64,000 nucleotides of DNA from Tubiluchus corallicola (taxonomy: Eukaryota > Animalia > Priapulida). The translations under genes were made by a program, and so were the position numbers. Under the pieces are notes generated by a model, which saw only the letters and a list, made by a program, of their open reading frames with translations, was not told the origin of the DNA and ran no database searches. Positions within the stretch are counted from its first letter, which is position 1, and each line of letters begins with the position of its first letter. Shown here piece after piece: positions 8,747 through 55,150 of the stretch. The stretch spans positions 1 through 64,000 of the forward strand of contig JAQGDQ010000042.1 in NCBI GenBank assembly GCA_030141605.1, written 5' to 3'.

Positions 8747-9749
8747 TTAACGAGACTATCCTAAGTGTCTCCAAAGTTTTTAGAGTTTATTTAAAGACGA
8801 GTTATTGTGAACACGTTCATGTCGATAAATCACGATTCAGTAATCACATTCATTGTCTGGCTTCTCATCAAACACATTTGTCACGAAGTCTGAGTGTGTC
8901 AACTGTTGCAGAGTCCGTAATCATTCATTGTAATAAAGACATGTAATAATAAAAGTGACATTAACAGAATTAGTAAATCGTCCCATAAAGTAGAAGTATT
9001 GTATGAGAAATATTACATAGACAGGTGTGGTAAACTTGCCAGGAAATAATGTGTGCTTGAGTTAATTTTAATGTAAAATGGGAATAAGCTTAAACAACTG
9101 CAGATTCAACAACTTAGCAATGTTGGAAAAATGCATCCCTACGTAGCAAAATATAAGTCTTTGGACTACGTGTGATTAAAGTTACATAGCGACTACGTAA
9201 AAATCTCTGTAATGTTTATTATTTGGCTTGTTGTCAGCTGCAGAACAGAATTTGTACTTTACTGTGACCTACGCCTACTGAATCTTGCCGCATTAAACTT
9301 AATCCGTAAATATACTAATTTAGCTTGTCGTTTTCGTTCTGGGTAGACAATTAATGATGCGCTCGCTGTATAGAAGCCCCGTAATTATATTACCCTAACA
9401 TTAACCTACATCACACAGTACAAAACTGACGCGTCGTTGCTGCATGGTTTCTTGACAAGGATTCTTTCTCTGTGACAAATAGCTAAATTAGGTAACAAGA
9501 AGAATGCTATATTTGTTACGACATGCTTATTCAAATAAGGAGTCGCTTCTTTACCTATCAGGTGCCTCAGTCTCTCACTCTAAGAAAAGTTCCCGCACGC
9601 CTCTGCATTTAGCTACAGTCGGCTACATATGTCCGGCCTTAAGCTAACAATTTGTGCTGGTACTGAGTCAAGCGCCGCTGGGATCACTTTTCAATTCATT
9701 TCATTTCAAATTTATTTGTCTCGTACAATTCAACAGAAAATTTGTTTAA

Positions 9750-10350
9750 AGCAAAACAGGACTCAATCTTAAACTGTAGGGCAAAACAATCTACTCTTTA
9801 AAATATTGAAAGGAAACATACTATTTTTTCAAAAATGACTTACGTGAAAGAATTATTACCACACAAACACAATTTCAAGTTTGGGCCGCTAGTTCTTCGC
9901 TGTTACATGCATTTCGCCATTTGCTAGTTAGACGGGCACTGGCGCTTGCATTTCGGAAACGCATTGCACGAAAAACAGGTGCTGTACCTCTCAGTTTAGA
10001 TGTGTTAGTTTGTGACGAACTACACAGGTTCAACAGCTTATGCGTGAGCACAGCGTGAATTTTTATCTTAAAACTTGTGTAATTTTAGTACAACGCACTG
10101 AATATGTTACAGTAGCACAGTATTTCAGTTTTCGCTTTCGCAAATACCTGCAATACGCTCTTTGAATGTGTTTGTTATTGAAAATTATGTTTGATGCCAT
10201 GAATAAGTGAGCTCACCTGCCGTTAATTAAGTTTTTAATCTATAATTTAATTATCAGAAACGCTTTTGTAGTATTAATTGTGTTAAAATGCATGTTTTTA
10301 CCGGTTTTGAAAATGTGGTAGTACATTATGAAAAATCATAATGTCAACCT
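9750..10350 (+). mobile_element. Kolobok-like non-autonomous DNA transposon, copy 1
   Basis: TTAA at 9746-9749 and 10351-10354; AG...CT termini; ~600 bp homologous to 19585-20875 and 34463-35073. Confidence 0.75.
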
Positions 10351-11224
10351 TTAAATATGGTTAGATCGCCTTAGAAAATAAACAGAAAGAGGCGGGGCGG
10401 TGAAAGACCATTGGAGAGAGACTTTTGATTAGAAGATACATTTTCTCATAAGGAAATTATTCAACTATTCAAGAAAAAATATTATAAGTAAGGATTAAAA
10501 ATAAACATTAAGTACTATCAACTGTTGTTCGTCATAAGATTCTTCCTAGTAATACACTGTTTTGGCAAACTCTTCTTACCATTCCCAAATAAAATAAAAA
10601 AATGTCCATTTTCGGTTGATTCATTGGCGTGTTTGTGCTGACTACCAAGGGGCTTAGAACATTAACGTTGTCTGCCGGGCAACAAACCCAATTATAGCCG
10701 GTTATATGATAGACCAACCTTTTCGGGATTATAAAATTAATGTAGGTCAGGCTACTAGATTCTTTAACTTTTTTGTTGGAGAGAAAATAACAAGAACAAT
10801 TACTTTTGGTTTATCTCGAATAATCGTAAATTCTTAGAACTTGGAAGTTGAATTGAAGAACTAATGTGCTTGAATCCGCATGTCCTATTTGTTCATTTTT
10901 TGAGAGTTAATGATTTTCATAAGATAATCACGGGTAGAGCTTACCATTGTTTGAAAGCCGTTTCTTTGTAAAAATCATACTACGCATTACTTGGACACCT
11001 TAATTTATTCATTAGATGAAAGAAACCACGTAATGTAACAATGTATAGGGCAGCTTAGTTTAAAAGGCCGGATCCATTTCATGGATGTATTTAAGGCTCA
11101 TTTTAGGAAAGTAGAAAAAGGACTCCGTTACGGTCTGGGTAATGGTACGTAGTGTCTTCAAACATATTTTCAACGTTCTAAGATGAAAACTGTCACGTGA
11201 TAGCTTTCAAAGATAAATGTGACA

Positions 11225-18006: not shown

Positions 18007-19584
18007 GTACTAATAAGTATAGATGTTAAGCAAAATACGCGTAAATAATTGCTTATTACTAGAGTACCTTGAAAACCTAAATATAGTAATACAACCGTTT
18101 CCGTAGTTGTACAGGTTACAAAAGTAATTCATCAAACTACAATAGTTGGGTTAGCACTTTATAACCAATTACGGACATGTTCAAAATGATGTGTAATTAA
18201 GATCAAAAGTCTATTTTAACATTACTTATTTCTAAATAAAACGAGCAATTTGTCTGCGTGGACCGCCTGCGGTAGGGTGAGCTGTAGTCAGTCACCTTCT
18301 TAGATCGCTTACCAGCGGCAAATTTCCAGTCACTTAATTTAGCATATCTCATTGCACTTGTCAATATTGAAATATTGACGAAAGAGTCCTGTTCAGAAAT
18401 CCATTTGCAAGTTAACTCAGGTCACTAAACTTTAGAGGCGATATAGATTACTATAGGTAAATGAGTCCATGTATAGTAAGCAAATTAAATTACCCTAGTT
18501 CAAACGGCCTGTTTAACTTACCATAAGAAAACCATGAAATCCTAGATTTCGCGCTTAAACAATCTAAGAAAAGTGTCGAATTTTAACTTCCTTTCCTATA
18601 GCGCTTTACACGTATCTTTTCAGTCTTTGTGTCACAAAATTTATTACGAATAATTCTGTACTTTCTCGTGTAAAAACATATTATTATTGCGAAATTTATC
18701 ATGTTAAAACGCATTTAAGTTAAAGCACTTTATATTTAAATAGGAAACGCATGAACATCTGTCCTTGTAACTGCAAATTGCTTATCAATCAAACTGAGAT
18801 ATTATAGTAAACCATCTAAGATTTGCACTGGCATACTGATGTGATAACTGCTGGTTTTTTAACGGGTGCCGTATTGCTTTAATTCTGTATATATTTCTTT
18901 TTTTATTATCTGCATTTTTGATAGTGCCAGTCATTAGTTTTTAACTGGTCTAACGGAAAGCATCACGTTGAAAGTGTGGTAATGTTCGACCATTTGGAGC
19001 TGAAGTCTTCTTTAAGATTTAAATTAAAAAAAACTATATGTGACATTACGACGCACACTAGTTCAACGGGTTTGATATGGTAACGACGGGGTGGAGGCAA
19101 TATGTCAGCGTGTGGCAAGAAACTCAATAGAACGTATGGCAGTTAGTTTGGAAAATTACGGGAGAATTTGTAAAAATGTCTATAAGCAAATCGTGTTATG
19201 TGGACTAATGCAAATAGCTTAATGCAAATTTGCGAGTGGAACATTAGATCCTGTAAGGTCATGAAAATAACCAGAGTCACTGGAAGTGGCATTTGCAAGA
19301 CTGAAAGTAAGAAAAATCCAATTATAGTACTAGTGGAGATTTGCTTGTGCTTGTAATAGTATTTGCAGTGACGGTAACAACTTACTTAACTAAACAATAG
19401 AGCAAATACAGCTTATATGAAAGCGTGCGCTGAATTAGTTCAGCAAAAGCCTGTACAAATTGCCCAACAAAGAAGTGTACATCTGTCTCCACCGTAATTC
19501 AAATTTGATATTTTTGGTATGTTTAACTTCGGTTAGTTTATGTTATTCTGTTACTCATTTATTAGAATGACTATTAAAAGTTAA

Positions 19585-20875
19585 AGGAAAACCGGACTCA
19601 CTCTTAAACTGCAAGTCAAAACAATCTATTCTTTAAAATATTGAAAAGAAACATTCTATTTTATCAAGAATAACTTACGTGAAAGAATTATTACCACAGA
19701 AACATACAATTGCGTTCCCGCAGCTAGTTCTTCGCTGTTACACGCATTTCGCCATTCGCTAGTTAGACGGGCACTAGCGCCTGCATTTTGGAAACGCGTT
19801 GCACAAAACACAGGTGCGGTGCCTCTCAGTTCAGATGTGTTCGTTTGGGATGTAGTGCAAACGTTCGAAAGCTCATGCGTGAGCACAGTGGTAGACTCGA
19901 AATTTGAATTTTTGTCTTAAAACTTGCCGAGTTTCAGTACAACACACTGTATAGTACAACAGTCTTACAGTAGCACTGTACATTCAGTTCAGTTCTCGAT
20001 TAAACTATTGTAATAGCACACTTTTTGGCATTCCTCAGTATCAGATTGATAAACTGCAACATGTACACAACACAGCGGCCCGAATTATTACAGGCACTCG
20101 TAAATATGATCACACAACTCCTGTTCTCGTGCAATTGCACTGGTTGCCCGTTTCTTTCAGAATAAAATACAAAATTCTCTTATTAACACTCACAGCTCTG
20201 AATGATTTAGCGCCTTCCTATATATCTGATTTTTTGAAGCCATATGTGCCCAATCGCAATCTTAGATCAATTAATTCATCGACACTTTTTGTACCGCGTT
20301 ATAATCTAGTCACATATGGTTCTCATAGTTTTAGCGCAGAGGCACCAAAATTATGGAAGATTTACCAATTCATGCACGTAAAATCAATAATGTTCAAAAG
20401 TTTAAATCATTCCTTAAAACTTATTTTTATAAAGAAGCCTTTTTAATTAATTAGAAATATGGACTTATGGATTTAATTACAGCCGATTTTATATACATGT
20501 ATTAAGATCTTAGTTTTATTTATAACAGCCTATTGTGTATGTACTATTTACGTGTTAATATTTTAAGTATGTAAAATGCATTAGTTCATTTTTAATGTTA
20601 ATGCATTTTAAATATTCAATAAATTATTATTATTATTATTATTACTTTAATCTTCGCTTTTGTAAATACGTGCAACACGCTCGTGGAATGTTTTTGCTGT
20701 TGAAAATTATGTCCATTTCTAATGTCATTAATAGTTGGCCTCGTTTGCTGTTAATTAAGATTTCAAGCTATTATTTAACTATCAGAAACGCTTTTCCAGC
20801 ATCAATGGTGTTAAAATGTATGCTTATACCGTACTTGATAATGGGGTAGCATATGAAAAATCATCTTGTCTTCCT
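19585..20875 (+). mobile_element. Kolobok-like element, copy 2, interrupted by an L2 fragment
   Basis: TTAA-AGGAAAACCGGA...TGTCTTCCT-TTAA; colinear with copy 1 on both sides of a ~660-bp insert. Confidence 0.75.
19982..20643 (+). mobile_element. 5'-truncated L2-clade LINE (ORF2 C-terminus, 3'UTR and (ATT)n tail)
   Basis: Reads SRLNYCNSTLFGIPQYQIDKLQHVHNTAARIITGTRKYDHTTPVLVQLHWLPVSFRIKYKILLL...APKLW; ends AATAAA then (TTA)n. Confidence 0.8.
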
Positions 20876-23049
20876 TTAAAGAACAAGACAGTAAAAAGAT
20901 AAGAACGTGAGTTATATGGCACTGAAATATCTGAAATAATAATGTATGGATTATGTGCTACTGCTAGATTGCTCATAGTTTGGAAGTTTAGGTCAAGATT
21001 ATCGTAATGAACCCTAATGAAAACGACTCAGCTGTTACGTGTGACGTGCTATATCACACGTGCTTCATTAAATCTACCTTTACCGCCGTCTTGATTTCGG
21101 AAAACATAATTACAACGAACCTTGCTCAGCGAAGATGACTTTTAACATGTAGGTGTTATAGCAGGTAATTTCCATTTCATAATCACTGGGATTGACAGAA
21201 TCAGCAATACGTTGCGTACCAGGTACGCGTCTTAATTTACCTGCTATGATAGTCACTCTGGCGGCTGTAAGCTTGTATAAGGTGTTCCATAAGCGGCAAT
21301 GTAGAAGAATAATTATTGTGTGCAAATATAATTGCAAATAAATAATCAATTGTGCCCGCAAAATTTTTGCATTTTACTGTTAAATATCAATCAGGTGTAG
21401 GATGTAAAAATCACAAGTTAATCAAAAACTTTTCATTAAAAAATTTCATTAATCTACAATGTCGTTTATATTTATTTGCCTTTTTAGCTTTAGACGACTG
21501 ATGTGCGTTAATTTATTCCAAGAATTAACACTCTTTTATGTCTTTATGCTCATGTAGGTTTTTTCACGTTTACAGTATTAGCTTTATTATTGTAGCAATT
21601 CCATCAGTGTAGCATGAAGCTATAGTGGACTGGTTATACTGACATAGTACAAACCTAGAAAAGAGTGATTTAACTCTTGAAATGCATTTTTATACCGCGC
21701 ATTGCTTATTTTTAACAACATACTTTGCACACATTGTAAATAAAAATAGCTGCATGGACAATGGGCCGGTTGACGAGACGAATTGGTATGTGGGTAGCAT
21801 GCAAGCAGGTAGGTAGGCAAATAAGCAGATAGACAGTGTGACATATAATTAGGTAACTAGAGGCAGAAAATCGAACAGTCAGACATACATAATTTTATAC
21901 GGTAAATAAGATTTTGAGTTAATTTTTTGTACTCTATTTTATCCTTATATTTATGTATTTGTGTTCTATGGACTAAAATCACTAGATTCCGAAATAAATA
22001 AATTATAATTGTAATGCATGTAAATGCATTACAAAAGAAAATAAATAAGCCATGAAATAAACAGTAAATAGAAAACAAATAAGCAAACAGTAGATGAACA
22101 AACGCTTTTGACACACAGACAAATGAAAAAACAAGTGTAACAAAGTGAGCAAACAAACAAACAAGCAGACAAACACATAAATAAGCAAAACACCTAAATA
22201 GTTAATAGATATGCCTAAATAAATAAATCAAATAAAATTAGCCTGTCCGTAATGCGTGTAAAATTAAGGCATAATTGCAGGCTTGAACGACACTAATTGA
22301 GACGCCCTAGGCCGCACTGCAGCTTTAATATTAGCAAAAAAGGTGATTGAACGGTTTGCTTCCTAGCTCTGTGTTGATAGCCTAATAACGATTATGCAGA
22401 TTATTATGTGTCATTTGCAAGTCAGATCCGAAGACTGAAGCATTCCGCAGGACATTTCCATCGGCAATTAATAGTGACAATCTCTATAGCCAATACACTT
22501 GGGCCTTGGCTTAAATCAAGGATAAATTATCACTGGTTAAACAGCGTATATTCTACTGGCTGCTTTAATCAAAATTTTCGAAATGGTTCGGGGAACTTCA
22601 ACTTTTTTATGTTTAAACACAAGTAATTTAGTTCGATCAAATAAGCTCCATCATTGCGACCATTTCTTCAATGGTATAGAACTATCAATTTCTTTCGTGT
22701 CTTCATCTATCCTAAAATAAATACACGTGACTTTGCCCAAATATCCTCCTTGCAAAAACTTATTGCGCCACACTTTATTGCGTCATGTCCGTATTTGCCA
22801 CGAATGAAAGTAAATTTTAGTAAAATATTTGACGAAAGTCAGCTGTGTTTTAAATAAAATAAACCCGTTAGTAGATTTATTAATATAGCACACAAAATAA
22901 ACGTCAGATGTAAGAGTGAAGAATATAAGACAAGTACTATTAGTAAAATAAATCCAGTATAAATCCAGCAAAATCGTTGAAAACGTTGTTTTATGAAAGT
23001 GTGAGCAACATCTTATAACTACTCATGCCCAGTTTAGCTGCAAGGAAAG

Positions 23050-27800: not shown

Positions 27801-29539
27801 ATTGTTATTATTGTTGCTGCCCTATTAAATTAAAAAATTAAGTGCCAAAGTTGGCATATCCAATAAAAGTAAAAAGGCCAATAATTTTGCTCATACTGGA
27901 TGCTAGATGTAATACATGTAATCGTGGGTTTTTGCACAGAACACGAAACAAGCTGTGTATGCGTCAATGTGCTCAAATGTAGATTTTATTAGCCATTACG
28001 GGTTTTGAAAATGTTAACGGATTTTCGAATTATACGATTTACAATTATATACGAGACAAAGTGCATTAAAAGCGTTGGATTTATTACTCAACGTGTAAAT
28101 AACCTGAGCCAAACGACAACGATTCAAAGAGAAGCATATATTTGCACTGATTAATTGTTTGTATTTTAGTTTAGTCAATAAACTGAATTTATTCATCAAG
28201 ATTTCACAAATTTTGTGATGGAAAAACAAGAACAAGCGCAGTTTCGACGAGAATTGACATTTGCAAATTAACTGTTTATGCTTTAATATCGTGAAATGAA
28301 AGAAATGCATGCGGTGGAGGTAGGTGGAGATATTTCCCCAATGAAGATGTATGATCTATGACGTCGACCACCCACTCGAAGCAATATACACACACGGAGC
28401 CGCAGATGTATTATTAAGTCTTATTAAGCCTATAAATTTAATAATGACATTAATTATTGAAAGCATGGTGTGAGTAGCTGATGACTATTCTTAAATAGAT
28501 GATAATTTGTTAATTACATATTTACCAATGTGTTTTTTTTAATAATTATTATCCTTTGCGGTAATGAGTTGGAGAAACTGTTAATTTTCTCCAATTTGGA
28601 AAAAAGGAAACGCTAAAAAACTGTTGACTAGTCGGTATTTGAACCTAAGACCTGGGATTAGTGCCCCCATGCGTTGCCACTAGTTCAACATTTCCTTCTT
28701 ATAGCACACAATCCACCAGTGCCCACGACTGTAGAGGATACTTGCAGTGCTGTATGGCGCAAGCATAGTATTGATACATTATAATTTGTACTATAAATTA
28801 CAGTGAAAACAACTGCTGAACTACCCTCTTCCAGTAAGCCTGAGTTTAAATTTAATATACCGTAAAGTCTAGGGCAAGAATATAGTCGTAGCGTACCAGC
28901 CTTTAATTCATTCTTGAGCTTGCAGGTTCTAGTGCAATCGTGTTTGCGTTTTATGGATTAAGGATTAAAATCCTGCTTAAAGAATAAAATAAACTGAAGG
29001 ATTTAAATCTGTAACCATCCTAATGAGCGCCTGAAAACATTAGTCAACTTCTCGTACGTCTGTATAGTATCAACCGAAACCTGAACGTCCAAAAACGACG
29101 TCTTTTTTCTACTATTCGACTACCTACAAGAAAGAGACGAGACCCAATATCCAACAGCAAAATCCTGGAAGTGCGATAAGCCGTATTATGAACGATAATC
29201 AATTAAGATGAGGCACTGAACCGGCAGTCGTGTCCCCTCCTTACTATATTTGGATGCGAATGAATCCTGCCTCAACAAGAGAAATAACTGATGGCATTAC
29301 GACAACAGCATGCAGAAGCGCTTTTCCCGGCAGTCACCCATCCATTTGCTGACCTGATTCGGCGTTCTTTAATTTCCGGGCCTGCCTTGCACTGCAACTT
29401 CTTAGCAATTCATTAGCCCGGGAATGACTTCTTGTTACCTGAATATCTACTTTCGTATCAATCCCCTTCTCTACTTTTTCTATCGTCACACCTTTTTTTT
29501 CTTTTTCTTCTACGTTCGCCTTCTCTTCATCATCGCTCT

Positions 29540-29589
29540 TTATTTTGGTTGGTTAGCCAACAGATCAGCTGCAGTTAAAAAGCTCAGGG
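29540..29589 (-). CDS. Tentative second exon of the EGF-repeat gene ((A)LSFLTAADLLANQPK*)
   Basis: ttgcag acceptor (exon from 29589; alternative ctgcag, exon from 29568) is phase-compatible with the phase-1 donor at 29718; TAA at 29542-29540. Confidence 0.3.
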
Positions 29590-29718
29590 CTGCAATTATA
29601 GTTTAGAAATGACAAAGCAGGCTATTTGTCGTATAATAGGCCTACAATATGTCCTACGATAGGACAAAAGGTTTTCTTTGGGTGTCTTATATTGAAAAAC
29701 TTGAACTTTTTGACTTAC

Positions 29719-30401
29719 CAATGGTTTCGTTGCAAATCGACCCAATGTATAAAGGATTGCAAATGCACACTGACTGTGATGGATTCTCTTCATGTGGAGT
29801 GCACACTCCATTAACACATGGATCGTTTTCTAAGCATGGATTCGAAATAATGCATACATCTCCTACATATTCCTCGGAACACTGGCACTCTGGCAGGGAT
29901 TGATTGTTTAAATTCGGAATGCAAGTGCCTCCATTCTGGCATGGTTCAGAGAGGCAAGGATCTACAATTTCACAGTCGTCACCTATCCAACCTTTGTTAC
30001 ACTGGCATTCACGCGCACTGTTATCTTGCTGAAAGCAAGTTCCATTTACACAGGGTTGCCAATAGCATATGTCTTCCTGGTCACAAACATTCCCAAGCCA
30101 ACCATCATCACAGATGCAAAATGGGTCCCCTGTCTCTACGTCTTCTACACATCTACCATGTGCACACGGATCTAGATAACACACATCGACTTTTGTACAA
30201 TTATCACCAGTCCAACCGTTACCGCAGAAGCAGTGGTATTGTTCGTCTGGTTGACGTACCTGACACGTGCCATTGTTTTCACACGGGTTGGGATGACAAG
30301 GAAACTCTTTGTCACAGTCTTGATGGATGGTCCCATCTATGCATTGGCATAGATAGGAATTGCCACTTGAGAAACAAATTCCTGCATTCAAGCACGGATT
30401 T
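29719..30401 (-). pseudogene. 3' part of the LINE-split coding exon of a secreted EGF-repeat protein (rest of EGF1 plus EGF2-6)
   Basis: NPCLNAGIC...CQC...C followed by five complete six-Cys EGF modules with no stops; ends ATTG|GTAAGT (phase-1 donor at 29718). Confidence 0.9.
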
Positions 30402-33068
30402 TGTAACAAAATAGAATCAATTTGGTACAATATCGAAAACTACATTGTAGGTGTCATTTATAAGCCACCAAATCAAAAATATAAGACTTTTCTAAAACAT
30501 TTTGAAATTGAACTTGAACGTGCTGTACTTGAAAATCAACCAGTTTTATTAATGGGGGATTTTAATATCGATATTAATGCAACAAATACTGCTCAGTGCA
30601 GAAAGTATAAAGAAGTCTTGGACCAATATAACACGCAAATACTAAACGCAAGTAATAAACCCACAAGAATCACTAAAACATCATCTACTACCATAGACCA
30701 CTTTATCTCAAACGCTAAAGACAATTTCCAAGTACAAGAAAACTTCTCCTGTGATTATTCTGATCATGATTTTATAATAATAGTAGACAAAACAAAACCA
30801 ACCAAAAACAATACAGGCACAGTCTGGAAAACAGTCAGAGATTATTCTACATATAATAAAGATATATTTCAAGATACTTTAACCAAATTGGACTGGAGTA
30901 ATATTTACACAATGACTGACATTGACATGCAAATAAACACATTAATAAATAATATGGAATACTGCCTGGATATCTATGCACCGTATAAAAAAATTAAAAT
31001 ACATCAGCAGCAATTTAATGCAAAATCTGCTTGCCCTTGGGCGGATACAGAACTCGCAAAACTAAGACACAATAAAAATGAATTATATAGAACATATTTA
31101 CATTTAAAAGGTAAAATCAATTACAATAATTACAAAAAGGCACGAAATAAATTTAATAGCTACAACAGGAAACTCAAAAATAAATATTATATTAATAAAT
31201 GCAATGATGCAACTACACCTAAACAAAAATGGCGTTTAATTAATGACGTACTTAACAGATACAGAAACGATCAATTACAAATAAATAGTTTACGAGAAAA
31301 TGACAGTATAATATCTGATCCAGTTGACATTGCTAACAAATTAAATTCCACATTTATCAATCTCGGAAAATTTGACAACTTGCCACACCAACATAATGCA
31401 AATATACACAATATATACAAAAACCAATCAGTAATACAATCCACTTTCTCATTTACTAGCGTCACAGAATATGACATCTTTAGAATATTAAACAGTTTAA
31501 ATATAAATAAAGGAAGTGGACCCTCAGACTTGCCAATAAAGATCTTAAAAGACTGTGCCAGCATCATTACTCCTCATCTAACATATATCACAAACCAAGT
31601 CTTAATGCGCTCAGAATTTCCAGCAGTGTGTAAACAAGCGAACATAACTCCAATATACAAGAAAGATGCTAAAGATGATGCTAAAAACTACAGACCAATC
31701 TCAGTAGTGCACGTACTAGCCAAAGTATTTGAAAGAGTTATCTACAACCAAATAAACCATTACATTGAAAATAATAAGTTACTGTCAAATCATCAATTTG
31801 GTTTTAGAAAACTACATTCTACAATAGACGCGATAATTGATGCCACTGAAAAGTGGCGTTACAACTTAAATAAAAATAAATATATACCAGCAGCATTTTT
31901 AGATCTAAGTAAAGCTTTTGACAGCCTCGATCACAATTTACTACTAGACAACTTACGCCAACTAGGATTCGATTATACTTCTCTCAAACTAATTAATAAT
32001 TACCTACACAATAGAAAACAAAGAGTCAAACTGAACAAACACACTTTTTCAACATGGGACACACCACAGAGAGGCATCCCACAAGGTACGATATTAGGTC
32101 CATTACTCTTTTGTTTATACGTTAATAAAATTCATTTAGTTTTACATAATTCAGACTTAACACAATATGCCGATGATACAACACTCTATACAGCACACGC
32201 AGACTTTCTAACATCAAAAAATAATCTAGAAAAAGACATAACAAATATAAATGCAGCATTTAACTATTTTAGTTTAAAAATGAATGATGATAAGACAGAA
32301 TTTATGGTAATATCACCCAAATCCAATGACATTACTTCTAATGCAACACTAAAAGTAGGTGACTGTTCCATAGAACAAGCAAAAACTGTAAAATTTTGAG
32401 GCATTACTGTCGACAATAAACTCACTTGGGATGAACAGTTTCATCAAATACACAACAAGATGGCATTAAGCACGACATTCTTACGCCAAACCAGAGGCCA
32501 TCTAACCAAGAAAACAAAAATTCTCATCTACAAAAGTCTAATATTACCACATTATCTATATGGTTGCACTTTACTTCAAAACGTTAAATATGAAAACTTT
32601 AGAAAACTAAATACAATGCAAAACTACGCACTTAGATTAATTCATGGCTACTCTAACAAAACTGCTAAACAACATGCTGCTTCTGCAACAAGCTTAAGAA
32701 CGTCCACAAAAATACCAATATTAGAAGCCTATCGAGATTACAAAACACTGATATTTCTTTATAAATATATAAATAAACTGAGCATTCCATTTATAAACAA
32801 TCCCTTAGCATTTATTCCTGATACCACATTGAACACTAGAACATACAATTTAAAGCAAATTACAGTAAACAATAAATTTGGGAATAACTCTATATCAAAA
32901 CAGGCCATACATTTATGGAACTTACTACCCAGTGAAATAAAACAAATAGAATCTCTCCATCACTTTAAAAAGAAATTAAAAGAATATCAATATAACAGGT
33001 TTCAACTTCCACATTGTGCATCTGATACTAATTACACGGACTCCACTTTCATCTACCCCCGCCCCTGA
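30402..33068 (+). pseudogene. LINE ORF2 (endonuclease-reverse transcriptase) with one in-frame nonsense codon
   Basis: ORFs 30360-32399 and 32460-33068 share a frame; the junction reads KF*GITVDNKLTW (TGA 32397-32399 where K(Y/F)LG is expected). Confidence 0.88.
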
Positions 33069-33425
33069 CTCCATATAATGATAAAAAATGAAATTTTTTA
33101 AAAAAAAAATTATGTAATGTAATACGTGTTATGTTAGTTTCGTGTTTCGTAATGTTAAATGTATAAATAGTGTGCACTAATGTAATGTAAAATTTAATGT
33201 ACTTTCCTATAATTGTTTGTAAAAATATTTTAATATGGTATCTGTAAATATGTTCATTATATTGTATATAGTTTGCACTTTAGTTTTTTTAGTATGCACT
33301 GGACGCATTTGTCTTGAACAGTGTTGTTATTTTAACATTACGCTGAGGCTAACTCAATTTTATTATAATGAGGGAACCGTTTTTATGACAAATAAAGAAT
33401 TAATATATATAATATATATATATAT
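30402..33425 (+). mobile_element. Young 5'-truncated CR1-group (Crack/Daphne/L2-like) non-LTR retrotransposon
   Basis: APE endonuclease motifs (VIYKPP, LMGDFNID, PTR..TIDH, SDH) lacking the N-terminal part; RT motifs (NYRPIS, QFGFR, FLDLSKAFD, GIPQGTILGPLLF, YADD); 3'UTR, AATAAA at 33391 and TA-rich tail; ATTT at both junctions (30398-30401 and 33426-33429). Confidence 0.93.
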
Positions 33426-33429
33426 ATTT

Positions 33430-33536
33430 GGAACACACGGATCTCGTTCAGTTGTTATGCTCGCCACAGAAAACTTTTCTAATGCAATCAGTATAATTAG
33501 ACTACATTTCATTATCCAAAACATTTGCATCGGCAT
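33430..33536 (-). pseudogene. 5' part of the LINE-split EGF exon: signal peptide and start of EGF1
   Basis: ATG at 33536 gives MPMQMFWIMKCSLIILIALEKFSVASITTERDPCV(P), which joins in frame to NPCLNAG at 30401 once the LINE is removed. Confidence 0.85.
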
Positions 33537-34011
33537 CTTTAAAAAAACTAGATGATTATTGATGTAAGATAGTTAGGGACGAATGAAATGACTTGATAAT
33601 GTTTAAGCGCAGCGGATATTATCCTCTCTGTATATATAGAAATACTTGGCGCTGAAGAATCGTTTTTATACCTTCGCTTTCTATCGGCATAAGCTCGAGT
33701 ATGACTAAAAGTGGTCTCAAATAGTCTTATCGGCATACCACTCCTTTGTCATATTGACAAAAAAGAACATTAAGTTTCCAATGTAAACGGAAGTCTTTTG
33801 CGAAATATTTTTGTAGCCTTCGTATAAGATCTCAAAATGTGTCGAGAGATAATTTTTCGATCATTTTTGCCCAGACTAGTCTTTACGACAGTTTTAGATA
33901 GATGTTCTTCAAAGTTTCTTGATGATTTTAAATAAATTTAAGAAAGAAATTAAAAATTATTTGTTCAGTGCTAACTACCTGTGTTTTATTTTTAAATTTG
34001 TTAATGTCTGA

Positions 34012-34021
34012 TGTGTGTGTG

Positions 34022-34053
<32 letters not shown>

Positions 34054-34083
34054 TGTGTGTGTTTGTGTGTGTGTGTGTGTGTG
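34012..34083. repeat. (TG)n/(CGTG)n microsatellite
   Basis: Direct reading. Confidence 0.95.
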
Positions 34084-34462
34084 TACATATGTGTTCCCTA
34101 GTTGGTTACTTAGTTTACAGAGTTCGCTCTATGAGTTGAAAAAGGATTCCGAAGCACCCGAAGCACCGAAGAACAAGTATTTACATTGCATGGAAACCAG
34201 ATGACGCTATTTTTTTGTCTAAAATGAGCGCGCTCAAGCGTAAAGTAATCACGACTTTAAATTGATTTTACTAATTACATGAGGTGCTTATTGCAATTTT
34301 ATTGCCGCTACAGCCATTGTCGCCTATTATATGTATTTTGATGAGCAGCTGCGTAACGTATAATGTATTATGTATGTATAAATAATGTAACGCATTTAGC
34401 TTACATGTATTTAGACAAACAATATATAATGTATGATATATGTATTATGTATATAGAATTAA

Positions 34463-35073
34463 AGGAAGACAGGATGATTTTTATTATACTACCCCATTTT
34501 CAAGTCCGATAAAAAGTATACGTTTTAACACAATTAATACTACAATAGCGTTTTTGATAAATAAATAATAGATTAAAAACTTAATTAACGGCAGGCGAGC
34601 CCAACTGTTGATGACATCACAAACTAACATAATTTTCAATAGCAAAACATTTCACAAGCGTGTTGCACGTGTTTGCGAAAGCGAAAATTGAAGTACAGTG
34701 CTACTGTAAGATATTCAGTGTGTTGTAGTAAAACTAGACAAGTTTTAGGATAAAATTCAAACTTCGAATTTGCCGCTGTGCTCACACATGAGCTGTCGAA
34801 TGTGTGCACTTCATCACAAACTAACACATCTGAACTGAGAGGTACAGCACCTGTTTTTGGCAGTACATTTCCAAAATGCAAGCGCTAGTGCTCGTCTAAC
34901 TAGCGAATGGCGAAATGCATGTAAAAGCGAAAAACTAGTGGCGTGAACGTCAAATTGTGTTTGTGTGGTAATAATTCTTTCACGTAAGTCACTTTTGAAA
35001 AATAGTATGTTTCTTTTCAATACAAAGAATAGATTGTTTTGACCAACAGTTTAAGATTGGGTCCGGTTTTGCT
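34463..35073 (-). mobile_element. Kolobok-like element, copy 3 (inverted)
   Basis: TTAA-AGGAAGACAGGA...TCCGGTTTTGCT-TTAA; the reverse complement aligns to copies 1 and 2. Confidence 0.75.
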
Positions 35074-36522
35074 TTAATGTAAAGTATTTAACCTCGGGAG
35101 CTTTCTTGTATATAATATACAAAATTTGTACATATTACATTATTTATCTTCTCTTGACTAACCTGCATCTTTAATCGCATTCTTCTCTACACAGACCTGA
35201 TTTTACACCCTCCTTATCCTGCCTATCCCTTTCTCACTATCAATGTTGTGCTTACAAGATTTTCTTTCAACACACATTGAAGCACTTTATTGTAAGTAAT
35301 TAGTTTTTTGCCAAGCCATATTTTTGTTATTGTTGCTTGTCATTGAATGTACATTGCTTTTTGTCACAAATAAATCTAAATCTAAATGTATTTTTTGGGA
35401 AAAAGTTCTCTTGCATTCACAAAGCAAATTCTAAAATATTTATTGCACTCAGGTTTAACGCGGTATTTAAAAATTAGGCAATTTTCTACGAAATTGTAAC
35501 AAAATCTTATTTCAATTAAAACTTCTTTGACGATACATATCGATACGCGTTAAGTATTGTTTAGCTATATTGAATACTGACCGTTTAATATCACTGCTCA
35601 GCTGCTTAGCTATAGAAATTTTACGAGCATGTTTGGCTTGTATTTATTTTTCTACTTTTTATCGCTGCTATTTTCTCCACAAAATTTAGTTAAATCACTG
35701 AGTTATTTTACTTCGACCTTTGGTAAAGTAAAGGTCTAGACCCCTGCAATATTTATTAGTGAGTGAAAAGCTATGATGTAAAAAATAGACGTTCAACCCA
35801 ATGAAGTTTAATTCTTCGGGGTACTGTTTTGCTTTTCTGTTTATTAAAGTGAAAAGTAACTTAAGTATTTTTAGCCGAAGTTCTACTTGAATTTTTTTGT
35901 AGGGCGAAATTTGCTGGATTAGTTATCAGCACCTTTGTTAAAAAGGTTAATTCACTATTCGCGATTCGAAAAGTTTAATATCAGATGTGTGGACGTTCAT
36001 TGTACAACGTGAACTGTGAATGTAGTTCATACTTTGCATGCTGTTCGTTGAGTTATTTATTAAGGAGTGCACCTGTGCGTGATTAAAGCGTCGAAATGGG
36101 TAGATATCGTTCATTATAGCGCTAGTCTACCTGTCGCACAGTTTAAATAATAATTACTTAAACTGTGCCCTGTGGTATAGTGACGTGTCTGATTGACAAA
36201 ATCACTTATTTACTTTTTAACCTTTTATTGAATGCGCCGTCATGTATTAAAAGACGCCATTTTCCTCTCTGTGTCTAAAAGCAGAACAGATTTTTCGTAT
36301 TTATCCAGCCTAACCACCTAATTACTATGTGAGAAACTATCAGTGATATTTTGTTGTTGGTAATTTGTACCACCTGACTGCATTTAACAACTCCAAAAAA
36401 GTGAATCCAAACAACGAAGATTTAACTCTTTTTGAAACTAATATGAAGCCATGTGAAATCTCACAATTTTAATATGTAGCGAAACGGCACTAAATATTAC
36501 TTTTTGCTTACCAGTGTAATAA

Positions 36523-36678
36523 AAATTGACGGACACAATATTTGTTTTGCAGATATAGTTGCAAAAAATAAAGGATTTTTGCACTACTATAATACGTAGA
36601 AAATTGACGGACACAATATTTGTTTTGTAGATATAGTTGCAAAAAATAAAGGATTTTTGCACTACTATAATACGTAGA
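36523..36678. repeat. Near-perfect 78-bp tandem duplication
   Basis: aaattgacggacacaatatttgttttg(c/t)agatatagttgc...atacgtaga twice, with one mismatch. Confidence 0.9.
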
Positions 36679-37777
36679 AACAAAATTTGGGATGGTGGGG
36701 TTACGTTAATAATGGCTAGTCAATTTAGGGTATCTTGTGTATTTATAAAGCGCACTTCCTCCTTTCATTTAAGTGGCAAAAAACTGGAACGGGAAAACTT
36801 TCCGGATGATTTTCTCTGCAGGCTGCGTAAATTTCAAACACTTTTTTTCTAAAGCGGATCATTGAAAAAGCTTCGTCGTTACTCGTTAACCGGATGTACA
36901 CAGGGATGCGAGTATTAAATCTTCCGCTCAAAAACCGCCATTTTTGTTAAACCACAACATTTTAATAAAATACATTTGGCATTTGTGTAAAAAGAATTTT
37001 CTCTGACTATCCTGTTTATTGTTCTTTCGCGTATATTTTCGTCTCATTTAAAATTTGACGTTTATGTTGGTAGGACAAGATTTGTAGCAAGCAAATTCAG
37101 CACTGCCCAGACCTAAATTGTGGCGCATCCCATTAACGTAACTTCGACCACAGTATTTGCATATTATAATAATAGTATAATATCGTAGTAGTAGCCTATG
37201 CAATAATACTCTTTAAACTGTGCTTCAACACTCTCTTTTCGTAAGTGATATTTCTAATTGTTTTAACTCTCGAAGATAGTATGACATAATTAGACCTGAA
37301 ATTAAAGTGAAAACAGAATTAGCCAAAAACTTACAGTCAAGTACCAAAAGACAAAAACTTCGTGGACTGGTGGAAATTCTCCTGCTTTCCACAATGTCAG
37401 TTGACTATTAAAGGCCGCTATTCTACTCTTCTTTGCAGTTTTTTCCTCATTGAAGATGTTGCTTTATTAAGGAAGGAGTTTGTTTCTTGCTGTTTGTTTT
37501 ACTGCTGCTTGAAATGACTTTTTCATTAATTTATTGCTGCTTCTCAAAATTTTTTTCTTTATATTACAAATCATCTATTAAAGATCAGGGCTTATAATTT
37601 GGTTGAGTAGCACTCTTCATTTTATCTCTTGTTTAGTTTCCTAGCGGATTGAACTTTCAAAAACTTTATTGAAATAGTAGCGAAGCTTGATCTACACACG
37701 ACTTTAAAACGCTGTTCTGTACAAAAACCCTATTACTATATATGTGGTTATTTATTGTTTTGCAGATGGCGTTATAA

Positions 37778-38074
37778 ATGGCTCCTGATGACGTCACTCT
37801 TTTGTGTAACGAGAACTTTACAAACACCCATTGTTATCCCGTCCAAAACCCAGAAGAGTTAGCAGATCCACTCGTCCAGACGCCAGGGTTTGTTCCTATA
37901 ACAACCGTCTACTCCATCACTTTGGTTCTGGGGCTGTTTGGCAGTACTGTGGTCATCTTTACTCTTCTAGTGGACAGAAAGTCCAAGAATGTCACTAGCT
38001 CCTTCCTTGTGAGTTTAGCCGTGGCAGATCTGCTCATGTTGCTGATCATTGTTCCGTATGAGATAACATACATG
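37778..38074 (+). CDS. Class A (rhodopsin-like) peptide GPCR, coding exon 1 (N-terminus, TM1-TM2)
   Basis: MAPDD...VYSITLVLGLFGSTVVIF...NVTSSFLVSLAVADLL..VPYE; tttgcag acceptor ending 37765; donor ATG|GTAAGA, phase 0. Confidence 0.92.
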
Positions 38075-38689
38075 GTAAGATAGATATGTCATACAACAGA
38101 TTAATTCTTAATGAATGGAATATTGATATTAAATAAAAAAATCCGACGGTTGAAAAGCTAGGAAAAAGAAAAATGATAGAAAGGGAACGTTTTGCGTTTC
38201 TCACTAGTGTTTTTTCTATGCGCTTGCATCTTTTCAGTGTGATATCCTCTTCGTGTTAACAATATAGCAAAATATTTGTTTGCTAGTTTTAGTGTTCTTT
38301 GCGATTTTTTGTCTTTTTTTGTTCACTCGAAGAAAAACTAATGTGTTGGTTCGAAACGTTGAGACTTTTTTTGGCTTTTAACTGTGGGATTTTTACTTAA
38401 CGATTGCGTTATTTTTATCTAGAAAACTTTTACTGAAGAGCACGTATTCTTTCCAAATATAGTTAAGCTGTGGAAGAAAACGGAGGGGAATTTTAGAGTT
38501 AAAATGTAGATGTTCTCATAATATTTATGAAGTTTGTTTTGAGTTTTGTGTCTACTTAACATGTGAAAGAAGATTTATTTAGTTCTATACGTAATTTACA
38601 GATGACTAGATTTCTTCAAATTTTATAGTAAGTTTATATAGCTGCTTTTAATTGAATATCTGAAACATAGCGCTAATATTACTATTGGT

Positions 38690-45499: not shown

Positions 45500-45720
45500 T
45501 AAAAATTATACGTGTATGAAGCGCAAAGTTTTGCTAGACTGCCAACGTTTATACAATAGCCAGAGATTACTGCAATAGAAAGTAGAATAGTAAGATTTGA
45601 ACAAAAATGTCTTAACATTACGTGCGCAATAATAAAATTTTATGCACAGCATATTTGCTCTCACATGAAACAAACATAACTGATAAAGCAATACCTTTAT
45701 CATCAGTGTGGTCACATGAT
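45500..45720 (-). mobile_element. RTE-X-like LINE C-terminal remnant
   Basis: RANMLCIKFYYCARNVKTFLFKSYYSTFYCSNLW, similar to the remnant near 23650. Confidence 0.5.
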
Positions 45721-45822
45721 AATTTATGTCGTAAGTATTTCTCTACCCTACACACGGGTAGCTTACATAATATCATTAAGTGCAATAAAGCTGTTCAACT
45801 TTTATTTTATGGTTTTCTGCAG

Positions 45823-46386
45823 GTAATCAAGATGCTTATAGCTGTCGTCATCATCTTTGTCATTTGTTGGGGACCAAAACTAGTACTCGACGTCATACGC
45901 AAATCACAGACTGATGGCAAATCGTTCAGTCAAGTGGACTGGAGCATGCAGATATTGAAAGAATATCTTCCCGTTGTACATTCTTGTTTTAATCCATTTA
46001 TATACGCGTTTATGTCGCGCAACTTTCGCCACAGCATGGCGAGGGCCTTCACGCGATGCTGTCGACGGCGTACGGTCATTCGTCAAAGCACCAAGAGCAG
46101 AGACACAGGGTCTTTGAAATCGTCTCACACGTCTTCGAGCAAGGGTTCAACAGTCACTTCTAAAACTTCCTCGCATACTAGTGATCCTTGTCCTACTAGA
46201 AGACGCGCACACAGTGATGGAGTAAAGAATGCCAGAGACTGTATTGTGTGCCCTAGAAGTTCCTTACCATTAACCTACGCAGGTCAGTCAGCTGGTGGTT
46301 TGCTCAATGGGAACAGGTACAATGTTTCACGGATAGTGAAAGCTGATTCGCTTAGTTACGATAGCGATAAAATTACTAACCTGTAA
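45823..46386 (+). CDS. GPCR exon 6 (TM6, TM7, C-tail, stop); spliced CDS 1569 nt, 522 aa, neuropeptide-receptor type with subfamily unassigned
   Basis: ctgcag|VIKMLIAVVIIFVICWGP...HSCFNPFIYAFMSRNFR...TAA; CWxP and NPxxY motifs; CC after helix 8. Confidence 0.93.
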   Translation, partial: VIKMLIAVVIIFVICWGPKLVLDVIRKSQTDGKSFSQVDWSMQILKEYLPVVHSCFNPFIYAFMSRNFRHSMARAFTRCCRRRTVIRQSTKSRDTGSLKSSHTSSSKGSTVTSKTSSHTSDPCPTRRRAHSDGVKNARDCIVCPRSSLPLTYAGQSAGGLLNGNRYNVSRIVKADSLSYDSDKITNL

Positions 46387-54799: not shown

Positions 54800-55150
54800 C
54801 GAATTAGGTTTCAAAGAAGGAAGTTTAGTTTTCTTCGTGTTAATAGTGACTTCTAATTTATTTTATTCATGCAATTGATGTATTTATCAGTGAGCTGTTG
54901 CAAACCCTTGAAGGCAGAGGCGATTAAGCAAGTATCATCCGAGTAAATCAAGTGGTTTGCATATGTATTCGCAAGATAGCAACCTAGATGGGTGTTAGTT
55001 AGATTATTGTTGGCATCATACATATACGTATTGTATAATTTTGGAGACAAGAGACTGCCTTGTCTCCGTTAAGCCGTTAGAAACTGCGAAATTAGCAGAC
55101 ATAACTTCACCCCTCTTAAGCACATATGTTGTCTCGTGCACCATATATAC
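54800..55150 (-). mobile_element. RTE-X-like reverse transcriptase remnant
   Basis: RQGSLLSPKLYNTYM...GCYLANTYANHLIYSDDTCLIASAFKGLQQL (degenerate YADD). Confidence 0.6.

What the first reader, a model, noticed from the sequence alone, without database searches (positions are those of the whole stretch)
29719..33536. Hidden secreted six-EGF gene split mid-domain by a young antisense LINE
Seen: the minus-strand EGF ORF (29687-30430) appears to begin inside the LINE, but the minus strand beyond the LINE's 3' tail reads MPMQMFWIMKCSLIILIALEKFSVASITTERDPCVP from the ATG at 33536. ATTT sits at both junctions (30398-30401, 33426-33429). Excising 30402-33429 gives gat ccg tgt gtt cca aat ccg tgc ttg aat (DPCVPNPCLN), restoring a 790-nt open exon: signal peptide plus six EGF modules with all 36 cysteines, ending at a phase-1 GTAAGT donor. 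With the insert present, translation runs into the LINE tail and stops at 33365-33363 (57 aa). Inference: a recent insertional null allele, possibly polymorphic, of an undescribed secreted EGF protein that ORF-based annotation would mis-model as an EGF-RT overlap.
Basis: partly seen in the sequence, partly recalled or inferred. Interest (0 to 1): 0.8.

Follow-up and report, generated by a model that had tools for sequence, protein, structure and literature searches.

The report
Jumping gene breaks an EGF exon
In an invertebrate, a 3-kb piece of a common jumping gene (a LINE) sits backwards inside an exon that encodes a predicted signal peptide and six EGF repeats; another animal carries the exon unbroken, so this is a naturally varying insertion that likely knocks the gene out, an ordinary kind of event in a gene whose full product is still unknown.

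Summary
The decisive test also passed. A 967-bp contig from sample S1 aligns to both flanks with exactly the spacing of the empty site, and two more S1 runs leave the window at the same base. A contig from sample S2 crosses the filled 5' junction. The insert (30402-33429) is a 5'-truncated endonuclease-RT LINE of a high-copy family. It has a 4-bp target duplication and a (TA)n tail, differs from its family by at least 0.4%, and carries a private stop. The EGF exon is single-copy and is the target, not cargo. The filled allele is predicted null (57 aa). Still open: whether the product is secreted or membrane-bound. The phase-1 donor looks real, but no next exon was found in 29 kb. One empty S1 haplotype has lost the donor (GT>AT), and variants in the exon are mostly amino-acid changing, so the gene may be dispensable or fast-evolving. 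No ortholog was found (at most 44% identity) and no RNA data exist here. This is an ordinary mechanism in a new gene: new member of a known kind, interest 0.27.

The parts
33430..33536 (-). 5' piece of the EGF exon: ATG, predicted signal peptide (four Met in the first nine residues; hydrophobic core CSLIILIAL) and the first Cys of EGF module 1
   Evidence: translation; crude signal-peptide rule passed by this leader and by 2 of 324 other ATG frames; covered by the S1 empty-site contig
33426..33429 (.). target-site duplication, copy at the LINE 3' end (ATTT on +)
30402..33429 (+). 3,028-nt 5'-truncated endonuclease-RT LINE (including one copy of the duplication), antisense to the EGF gene
30402..30403 (+). 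two extra bases at the 5' junction that are not in the family sequence
   Evidence: family contigs in all 4 runs join at 30404 and continue upstream in other sequence; the S2 contig carries the window's junction with 0 differences
30405..32399 (+). LINE ORF2 part 1: end of the endonuclease domain and the RT domain, closed by a TGA private to this copy (32397-32399)
   Evidence: RVT_1 E=2e-32; Exo_endo_phos 21.8 bits, under its 24.5 cut-off
32400..33068 (+). LINE ORF2 part 2, in frame after the stop (222 aa, no Pfam hit)
33069..33425 (+). AT-rich LINE 3' UTR ending in a (TA)n tail. On the minus strand it supplies the premature stop (33365-33363) and an AATAAA at 33364
30398..30401 (.). target-site duplication, copy at the LINE 5' end
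29719..30401 (-). 3' piece of the EGF exon: rest of module 1 and modules 2-6 (227 aa, 35 Cys, 5 N-glycosylation sequons)
   Evidence: 88-90% identical pieces in the diverged run X5
29713..29718 (-). phase-1 splice donor GTAAGT; GT>AT on one empty S1 haplotype
29687..29689 (-). in-frame TAA 10 codons past the last exon codon (end of a 273-aa unspliced product); AATAAA follows at 29544
33537..33670 (-). upstream region: TATAAA at 33670, no ATG between it and 33536, and a T-rich AAG acceptor directly before the ATG (promoter and 5' UTR, or a 5' UTR intron; untested)

Best explanation
A 5'-truncated copy of an abundant LINE sits antisense inside the first EGF module of a single-copy 790-nt exon, between 4-bp target duplications; the site is empty in one sample and filled in another, and the filled allele is predicted to be a null that would make only a 57-residue stub. 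Shown: the insert, its ends, the family, the empty allele, the filled 5' junction in a second sample. Inferred: insertion by target-primed reverse transcription starting at the (TA)n tail, aborted inside the endonuclease region, with two untemplated bases added. Also inferred: a transcript of the filled allele would hit a stop 21 codons into the LINE tail, with an AATAAA on top of that stop, so it would be cut short or degraded. The intact exon is most likely the first coding exon of a spliced gene for an extracellular, non-calcium-binding EGF-repeat protein (signal peptide + 6 EGF, phase-1 donor to an unknown next exon), which most likely acts in adhesion or matrix binding. It evolves fast and tolerates disrupted alleles.
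For: Empty site: X1 contig of 967 bp = 29719-30401 at record 1-683 plus 33439-33713 at record 693-967. The nine letters between are exactly the length of 33430-33438. X2 and X4 contigs stop aligning at 30401 with 57 and 48 further letters, and the next X2 contig starts at 33457 as predicted. The X2 junction contig (depth 174.5) is unbroken at 30401, where neighbouring allele pairs sum to about 190-200, so both S1 haplotypes are likely empty. Filled: X3 contig 30084-30433, 0 differences, 32 letters on the LINE side. Family: depth over the insert is 871-30,194 in X1 against 13-21 in most flank bins, rising towards the 3' end; family contigs run on upstream of 30404 in 4 of 4 runs, in frame. Youth: 9 listed family-versus-copy differences in about 2.4 kb, a minimum, against 11 differences in 1,064 bp between flank haplotypes. 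No strong donor in 33536-33200 that could splice the insert out; 57-80 stops per antisense frame. Real exon: X5 keeps 8 of 8 covered Cys codons, and its only gap is 3 nt in frame. Haplotype differences drop at the donor, 6/78 outside against 3/295 inside, Fisher p=0.003. A GPCR gene starts on the other strand 4.2 kb upstream (37778), and no Pfam domain was found in the 17 minus-strand frames scanned in that gap.
Against: The nine bridging letters and the X2/X4 loose ends were not printed, and the tool listed no joint (repeat mask 33398-33438), so the empty junction rests on lengths. X1, X2 and X4 are one sample. S2 may be the window's source. The 3' junction was seen in no run. No RNA holder was listed. 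No downstream exon was found (0 of 135 minus-strand frames reach a Pfam cut-off). One S1 haplotype lacks the donor G. All 4 within-species codon changes in the exon are amino-acid changing (30014 and 30015 fall in one codon). The synonymous excess against X5 is not significant once transition bias is allowed (P=0.15-0.25). The signal-peptide rule was written after seeing the sequence; the hydrophobic core is short and is followed by Glu-Lys.
Confidence: 0.8

Rival explanations
1. Same insertion, but the intact gene has a single coding exon. Translation reads through the GTAAGT to the TAA at 29689-29687 and gives a 273-aa wholly secreted signal peptide + six-EGF protein, like the EGF-only adhesive proteins of marine invertebrates. 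The donor is chance or optional.
For: Open frame for 10 more codons, then TAA, then AATAAA at 29544. TATAAA at 33670 with no ATG down to 33536. No next exon in 29 kb. The donor G is lost on one S1 haplotype. X5 similarity extends past the stop to 29682.
Against: A perfect GTAAGT in phase 1 right after the last module has a chance of about 0.0045. The G is kept in X5. Extracellular modules are typically flanked by phase-1 introns (PMC8001218, passages; EGF itself is not named there). The 10-codon tail carries 2 amino-acid changes plus the donor change on one haplotype. Short or unknown-family exons would escape my searches.
Confidence: 0.3
2. The EGF exon was already losing function (a young pseudogene or a dispensable gene), so the LINE landed in neutral sequence and is a passenger, not a cause of loss.
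For: Two separate disrupting variants among the few haplotypes seen (LINE; donor GT>AT). 4 of 4 within-species codon changes are non-synonymous. dN/dS against X5 is about 0.4-0.6, compatible with partial relaxation.
Against: No stop or frameshift in any exon contig laid. All 36 module Cys are intact, and no Cys is changed in X5 (P=0.03-0.06). Variation is lower inside the exon than just outside (p=0.003).
Confidence: 0.15
3. The insertion is an assembly artefact, or the empty contig comes from a paralog or from cargo carried by the LINE.
For: No listed contig spans the whole filled allele; the 3' junction was not seen.
Against: X3 crosses the filled 5' junction with 0 differences. A target duplication and in-frame flanks are not expected from a mis-join. 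The empty contig differs from the window by only 3 letters in 958 aligned and has single-locus depth. At 80% likeness the deep run X2 shows no second long exon-like contig among the listed rows. Family copies continue into LINE sequence.
Confidence: 0.03

Closest known systems
Exonic L1 insertion alleles in mouse (PMC6466679, passages read; e.g. Scn8a med, a 180-bp 5'-truncated antisense L1 in exon 2)
   Same: 5'-truncated LINE in an exon, antisense orientation, loss of functional protein; the paper reports that half of 12 mouse L1 mutations are exonic.
   Different: Here a wild invertebrate, a non-L1-looking element with a (TA)n tail, no phenotype known and no transcript seen; exon skipping as in Scn8a med would here remove the start codon.
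Polymorphic LINE/TE insertions in wild populations (Anolis, PMC5389967; pearl oyster haplotypes, PMC9646362; passages read)
   Same: Abundant young families leave presence/absence insertions. Over 45,000 were found in anoles, mostly rare. The oyster has 75,012 insertions between two haplotypes, most of those over 199 bases matching TEs.
   Different: This one is in coding sequence; its allele frequency is unknown (two samples).
CR1/L2-group LINEs (PMC2653535, passages read; motif likeness recalled)
   Same: Endonuclease + RT ORF, 3' end in a simple tandem repeat rather than poly(A), short target duplication.
   Different: No reference elements were available for a tree, so the clade is not established; the tail unit is TA, not TAAATG.
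EGF-repeat extracellular proteins: fibropellin-like, Notch/Delta/Crumbs EGF arrays; mussel mfp-2 and PVFP-5 (PDB 7qab), scallop Sbp9, ascidian APAP-1 (PMC12817120, passages read)
   Same: Tandem six-Cys EGF modules behind a predicted signal peptide; matches to DLL1 (4xbm, E=3e-23), Notch1 and PVFP-5.
   Different: Only generic repeat similarity (28-44% identity among the 240 listed hits). No EGF_CA hit. Six modules in one exon. No DSL, CUB, LamG or other partner domain found in the window.

Membership tests
Non-LTR retrotransposon (APE-RT LINE) insertion | Reverse transcriptase domain | tested here: met
   RVT_1 113 bits, E=2e-32; Atlas top clusters RVT_1 + Exo_endo_phos
Non-LTR retrotransposon (APE-RT LINE) insertion | APE endonuclease upstream of RT | tested here: inconclusive
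   Exo_endo_phos positions 128-225 of 225, E=1.8e-4, 21.8 bits against a cut-off of 24.5; the domain is cut by the 5' truncation
Non-LTR retrotransposon (APE-RT LINE) insertion | 5' truncation, intact 3' end with simple-repeat tail, no long terminal repeats | tested here: met
   family continues upstream of 30404 in 4 of 4 runs and depth rises to the 3' end; (TA)n tail; no repeat pair at the ends in the self-comparison
Non-LTR retrotransposon (APE-RT LINE) insertion | Target-site duplication and an empty allele with one copy of it | tested here: met
   ATTT at both ends; contig lengths fit excision of 30402-33429 to the base; junction letters not printed
CR1/L2 group | RT phylogeny with named CR1/L2 elements | not testable with these tools
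   no named TE library; solved-structure hits are distant R2 and group II intron RTs only
CR1/L2 group | 3' tandem repeat instead of poly(A) | tested here: met
   feature taken from PMC2653535 passages; not unique to this group
EGF-like repeat protein | Six-Cys modules with C4-x-C5-x8-C6 spacing | tested here: met
   6 of 6 modules; Pfam EGF E=4.7e-23
Calcium-binding EGF (EGF_CA) | PF07645 match | tested here: not met
   not among the 5 families hit
Notch / Delta-Jagged / Crumbs / fibropellin orthologs | Partner domains (DSL, MNNL, LNR, LamG, CUB, avidin) and orthologous sequence | tested here: not met
   240 homologs searched against the window give no other exon; best identity 44%; exons outside the window not testable
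Secreted EGF-only proteins (mfp-2, PVFP-5 type) | Cleavable signal peptide | tested here: inconclusive
   crude post-hoc rule passed; 2 of 324 other ATG frames pass; SignalP not available
Secreted EGF-only proteins (mfp-2, PVFP-5 type) | No membrane anchor or further domains in the mature mRNA; gland expression | not testable with these tools
   no RNA holder listed; splice product unknown

The most novel reading that the evidence does not exclude
A lineage-specific, fast-evolving EGF recognition or adhesion gene segregates in three functional states: intact and spliced (possibly membrane-anchored), donor-lost (which would read through to a soluble 273-aa six-EGF form), and LINE-knocked-out. 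The states are kept by balancing selection, as in invertebrate self/non-self or gamete recognition loci.
Probability: 0.08. Interest if true: 0.6.

Novelty: new member of a known kind. Interest (0 to 1): 0.27.

Why it matters
For annotation: if this window is the reference haplotype, the gene would be missed or mis-modelled, although a working-looking allele exists in the species. For the organism: it marks an active or recently active LINE family and gives a natural, PCR-scorable loss-of-function allele of an orphan EGF gene, plus a second candidate allele (donor loss). Both could be used to learn the gene's function. It does not change how LINE insertion or EGF proteins are understood.

Tried and rejected
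No whole genome is held for this window, so paralogs, other LINE copies and exons outside the window could be judged only from run contigs. No RNA holder was listed; the one RNA-guess run X6 had 0 contigs laid, which is not evidence either way. Ortholog searches: 120 best of 1,489 longer and 120 best of 228 similar-length proteins, all generic EGF arrays. The Atlas gave generic EGF clusters, with recognition under its threshold. The metagenome scan gave 4 loci; the two I read (L001, L002) are unrelated EGF proteins at 31% and 25%, and L003 and L004 were short matches that I did not read. The 35-aa leader gave 3 hits among 1.84 billion proteins, all tandem-repeat sequences whose weak stretches add up; rejected as spurious. 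Downstream exons: 135 minus-strand frames of 42 aa or more in 260-29,700 gave 4 weak Pfam hits, all under cut-off; 11 phase-1 acceptor candidates, none convincing. Of 151 further frames listed I scanned 61 hand-picked frames, most from that list. Alternative acceptors inside the leader are all weaker than the one before the ATG, so a bare phase-1 EGF exon starting at 33442 is unlikely. The single-sequence fold was uninformative (pLDDT 50.6, pTM 0.20); no fold search was run. Rfam: 0 hits in 28000-38000. The bacterial promoter scan does not apply to an animal. The loose-end letters at 30401 fell among the cut rows in both read-laying runs. PMC4914847 passages were irrelevant. No supplements were read.
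Full report
1. Observation. Every stated feature is in the sequence. On the minus strand, 33536-33430 (107 nt) encodes MPMQMFWIMKCSLIILIALEKFSVASITTERDPCV plus two bases. 30401-29719 (683 nt) continues in the matching phase through 227 codons with 35 Cys to a GTAAGT donor at 29718. The total is 790 nt. ATTT lies at 30398-30401 and 33426-33429. With the insert the frame ends after 57 aa at 33365-33363. The six modules all show C4-x-C5-x8-C6 spacing, and the first Cys of module 1 lies on the far side of the insert. Pfam gives EGF E=4.7e-23 and no calcium-binding EGF. The window is animal DNA: it holds TBC1D2B-like exons 64-73% identical to ostracod, annelid and unnamed proteins and a rhodopsin-family GPCR gene. 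The phylum was not resolved.

2. The insert. 30402-33429 (3,028 nt, + strand) holds the end of an endonuclease domain (under Pfam's cut-off) and an RT domain (E=2e-32), a TGA at 32397-32399, 222 further in-frame codons, and an AT-rich 3' UTR ending in (TA)n. Contigs of four runs were laid on 28500-34000. Depth over the insert is 871-30,194 in X1 and 7,878-374,267 in X2, against 13-21 and 125-269 in the flank bins (the first one or two bins are higher, over a different repeat). It rises towards the 3' end. The tool warns that depth is no copy number; I take it only as showing an abundant, mostly 5'-truncated family. In all 4 runs family contigs continue upstream of 30404 in an open frame, so this copy is truncated inside the endonuclease, and 30402-30403 are extra bases. 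At 9 listed positions in 30601-32960 nearly all family contigs differ from the window: 4 silent, 4 missense, 1 the stop. I left out two rows seen in X3 only, and 42 rows of the table were not shown, so about 0.4% is a minimum. The stop is essentially private (other letter in 43,124 of 43,124 depth in X2, 350 of 350 in X3, 1,328 of 1,332 in X1, 1,452 of 1,508 in X4). The copy is young but dead. Its likeness to the CR1/L2 group rests on the simple-repeat tail (PMC2653535, passages) and on recalled motifs; no tree was possible.

3. Empty and filled alleles. X1 record 4 (967 bp, depth 13.3) aligns 29719-30401 at record 1-683 and 33439-33713 at record 693-967. Excising 30402-33429 predicts exactly 693 and 967. 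The nine letters between lie in the stretch the tool masks next to the TA repeat and were not printed, and no joint row was listed. X2 and X4 contigs leave the window at 30401 with 57 and 48 more letters; the next X2 contig starts at 33457, as predicted from a 30-letter overlap. X1, X2 and X4 are one sample (S1) and count once. S1 is heterozygous nearby (allele pairs at depth 94/109 and 89/103 in X2), yet the X2 contig over 30401 (depth 174.5) is unbroken there, so both S1 haplotypes are likely empty. X3 (sample S2, another study) has a 350-bp contig, 30084-30433, identical to the window across the filled 5' junction. S2 may be the source of the window, although its flank contig differs from the window at 10 sites and 2 gaps in 914 bp; zygosity cannot be read from these contigs. 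The 3' junction was seen in no run. The exon has single-locus depth, and at 80% likeness X2 shows no paralog-like long contig among the listed rows (26 rows not shown). Cargo and artefact readings are therefore rejected.

4. Effect of the insertion (inferred). A transcript of the filled allele meets a stop 21 codons into the antisense tail. An AATAAA overlaps that stop at 33364, and 8 more poly(A)-like hexamers follow in the insert. No 5-of-6 match to GTAAGT lies in 33536-33200, and the antisense frames hold 57-80 stops each, so rescue by splicing looks unlikely. The stub would keep the leader and one module Cys. Exonic antisense L1 insertions with loss of protein are well known in mouse (PMC6466679, passages), and polymorphic LINE or TE insertions number in the tens of thousands in wild anoles and between pearl-oyster haplotypes (PMC5389967, PMC9646362, passages).

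5. Is the exon a working gene? For: run X5 carries the same species label but shares only 0.01 of the words, so it is likely a diverged relative. It holds two exon pieces at 90% and 88% identity with one 3-nt in-frame gap in a loop. Of 37 differences on those contigs 23 were listed, 21 of them in the exon: 8 codons silent, 12 changed, and 0 of 8 Cys codons changed in amino acid (P=0.03-0.06). dN/dS is about 0.4-0.6; the silent excess has P=0.047 without and 0.15-0.25 with transition bias. On one S1 haplotype differences are 6 in 78 nt past the donor and 3 in 295 nt inside the exon (p=0.003; 0.011 without the donor base). Against: all 4 within-species codon changes are missense, and that same S1 haplotype turns the donor GT into AT (seen in X2 and X1; X3, X4 and X5 contigs keep G). 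X5 does not cover the insertion site. The picture is a real but fast-evolving or weakly needed exon.

6. Secreted or longer? The leader has a basic residue, a 9-residue hydrophobic core and small residues at plausible -3/-1 sites. A crude rule that I wrote after seeing it is passed by its four Met starts and by 2 of the 324 other ATG-started 35-aa frames in the window. A GPCR gene begins on the opposite strand at 37778, and the 17 minus-strand frames scanned in between show no Pfam domain, so this is likely the first coding exon. The donor is a perfect GTAAGT in phase 1 (chance about 0.0045), the usual phase for extracellular modules (PMC8001218, passages). But no next exon was found in 29 kb, and read-through gives a 273-aa product with AATAAA 143 nt after the stop. 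I put spliced at about 65%, single-exon at 30%, neither at 5%. No ortholog was found: identities of 28-44% to generic EGF arrays among 240 listed hits; solved relatives are DLL1, Notch1 and the mussel adhesive PVFP-5. Tandem EGF repeats recur in marine adhesive and matrix proteins (PMC12817120, passages), which makes adhesion or matrix binding the likeliest role; this is analogy only. Two recalled O-fucose motifs (modules 2 and 5) and one O-glucose motif (module 5) are present.

7. Verdict. The mechanism is ordinary and the gene is an uncharacterised EGF-repeat orphan: new member of a known kind, interest 0.27. The scan's notes held nothing on this locus, element or wording; one other EGF note in this genome concerns a different gene. 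The one unexpected point is the second disrupting variant at the donor, which keeps open a small chance (0.08) of a polymorphic recognition locus.

Noticed in passing
window 29718: One empty S1 haplotype changes the donor GT to AT: a second candidate disrupting allele, or a switch to a 273-aa unspliced product. The diverged run X5 keeps the G.
   Followed up: partly
window 37778-38080 and 45616-46383 (+): First and last coding exons of a rhodopsin-family (peptide-receptor-like) GPCR gene, head to head with the EGF gene, 4.2 kb apart.
   Followed up: partly
window 63278-63120, 61976-61788, 60831-60685, 60187-60107 (-): Exons of a TBC1D2B-like Rab-GAP gene, 3' part.
   Followed up: partly
window 19955-20443 (+) and 54856-55068 (-): Older LINE fragments of other families: a C-terminal L2-like piece (likeness recalled; no Pfam hit) and an RT piece (RVT_1 E=1.2e-5).
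   Followed up: no
window 9746-10354, 19581-19989, 20643-20880, 34459-35077: Three copies of a roughly 620-bp interspersed repeat at 77-84% identity; the middle copy is split by about 650 bp that holds the old LINE piece.
   Followed up: no
run X5: Carries the same species label as S1 but shares 0.01 of the words, even over the high-copy LINE, and is 10-12% diverged in the exon: a cryptic relative or a mislabelled run.
   Followed up: no
window 31007-31953: A family copy with a 945-nt internal deletion appears in both X2 and X3, so S1 and S2 share at least one derived LINE copy elsewhere.
   Followed up: no
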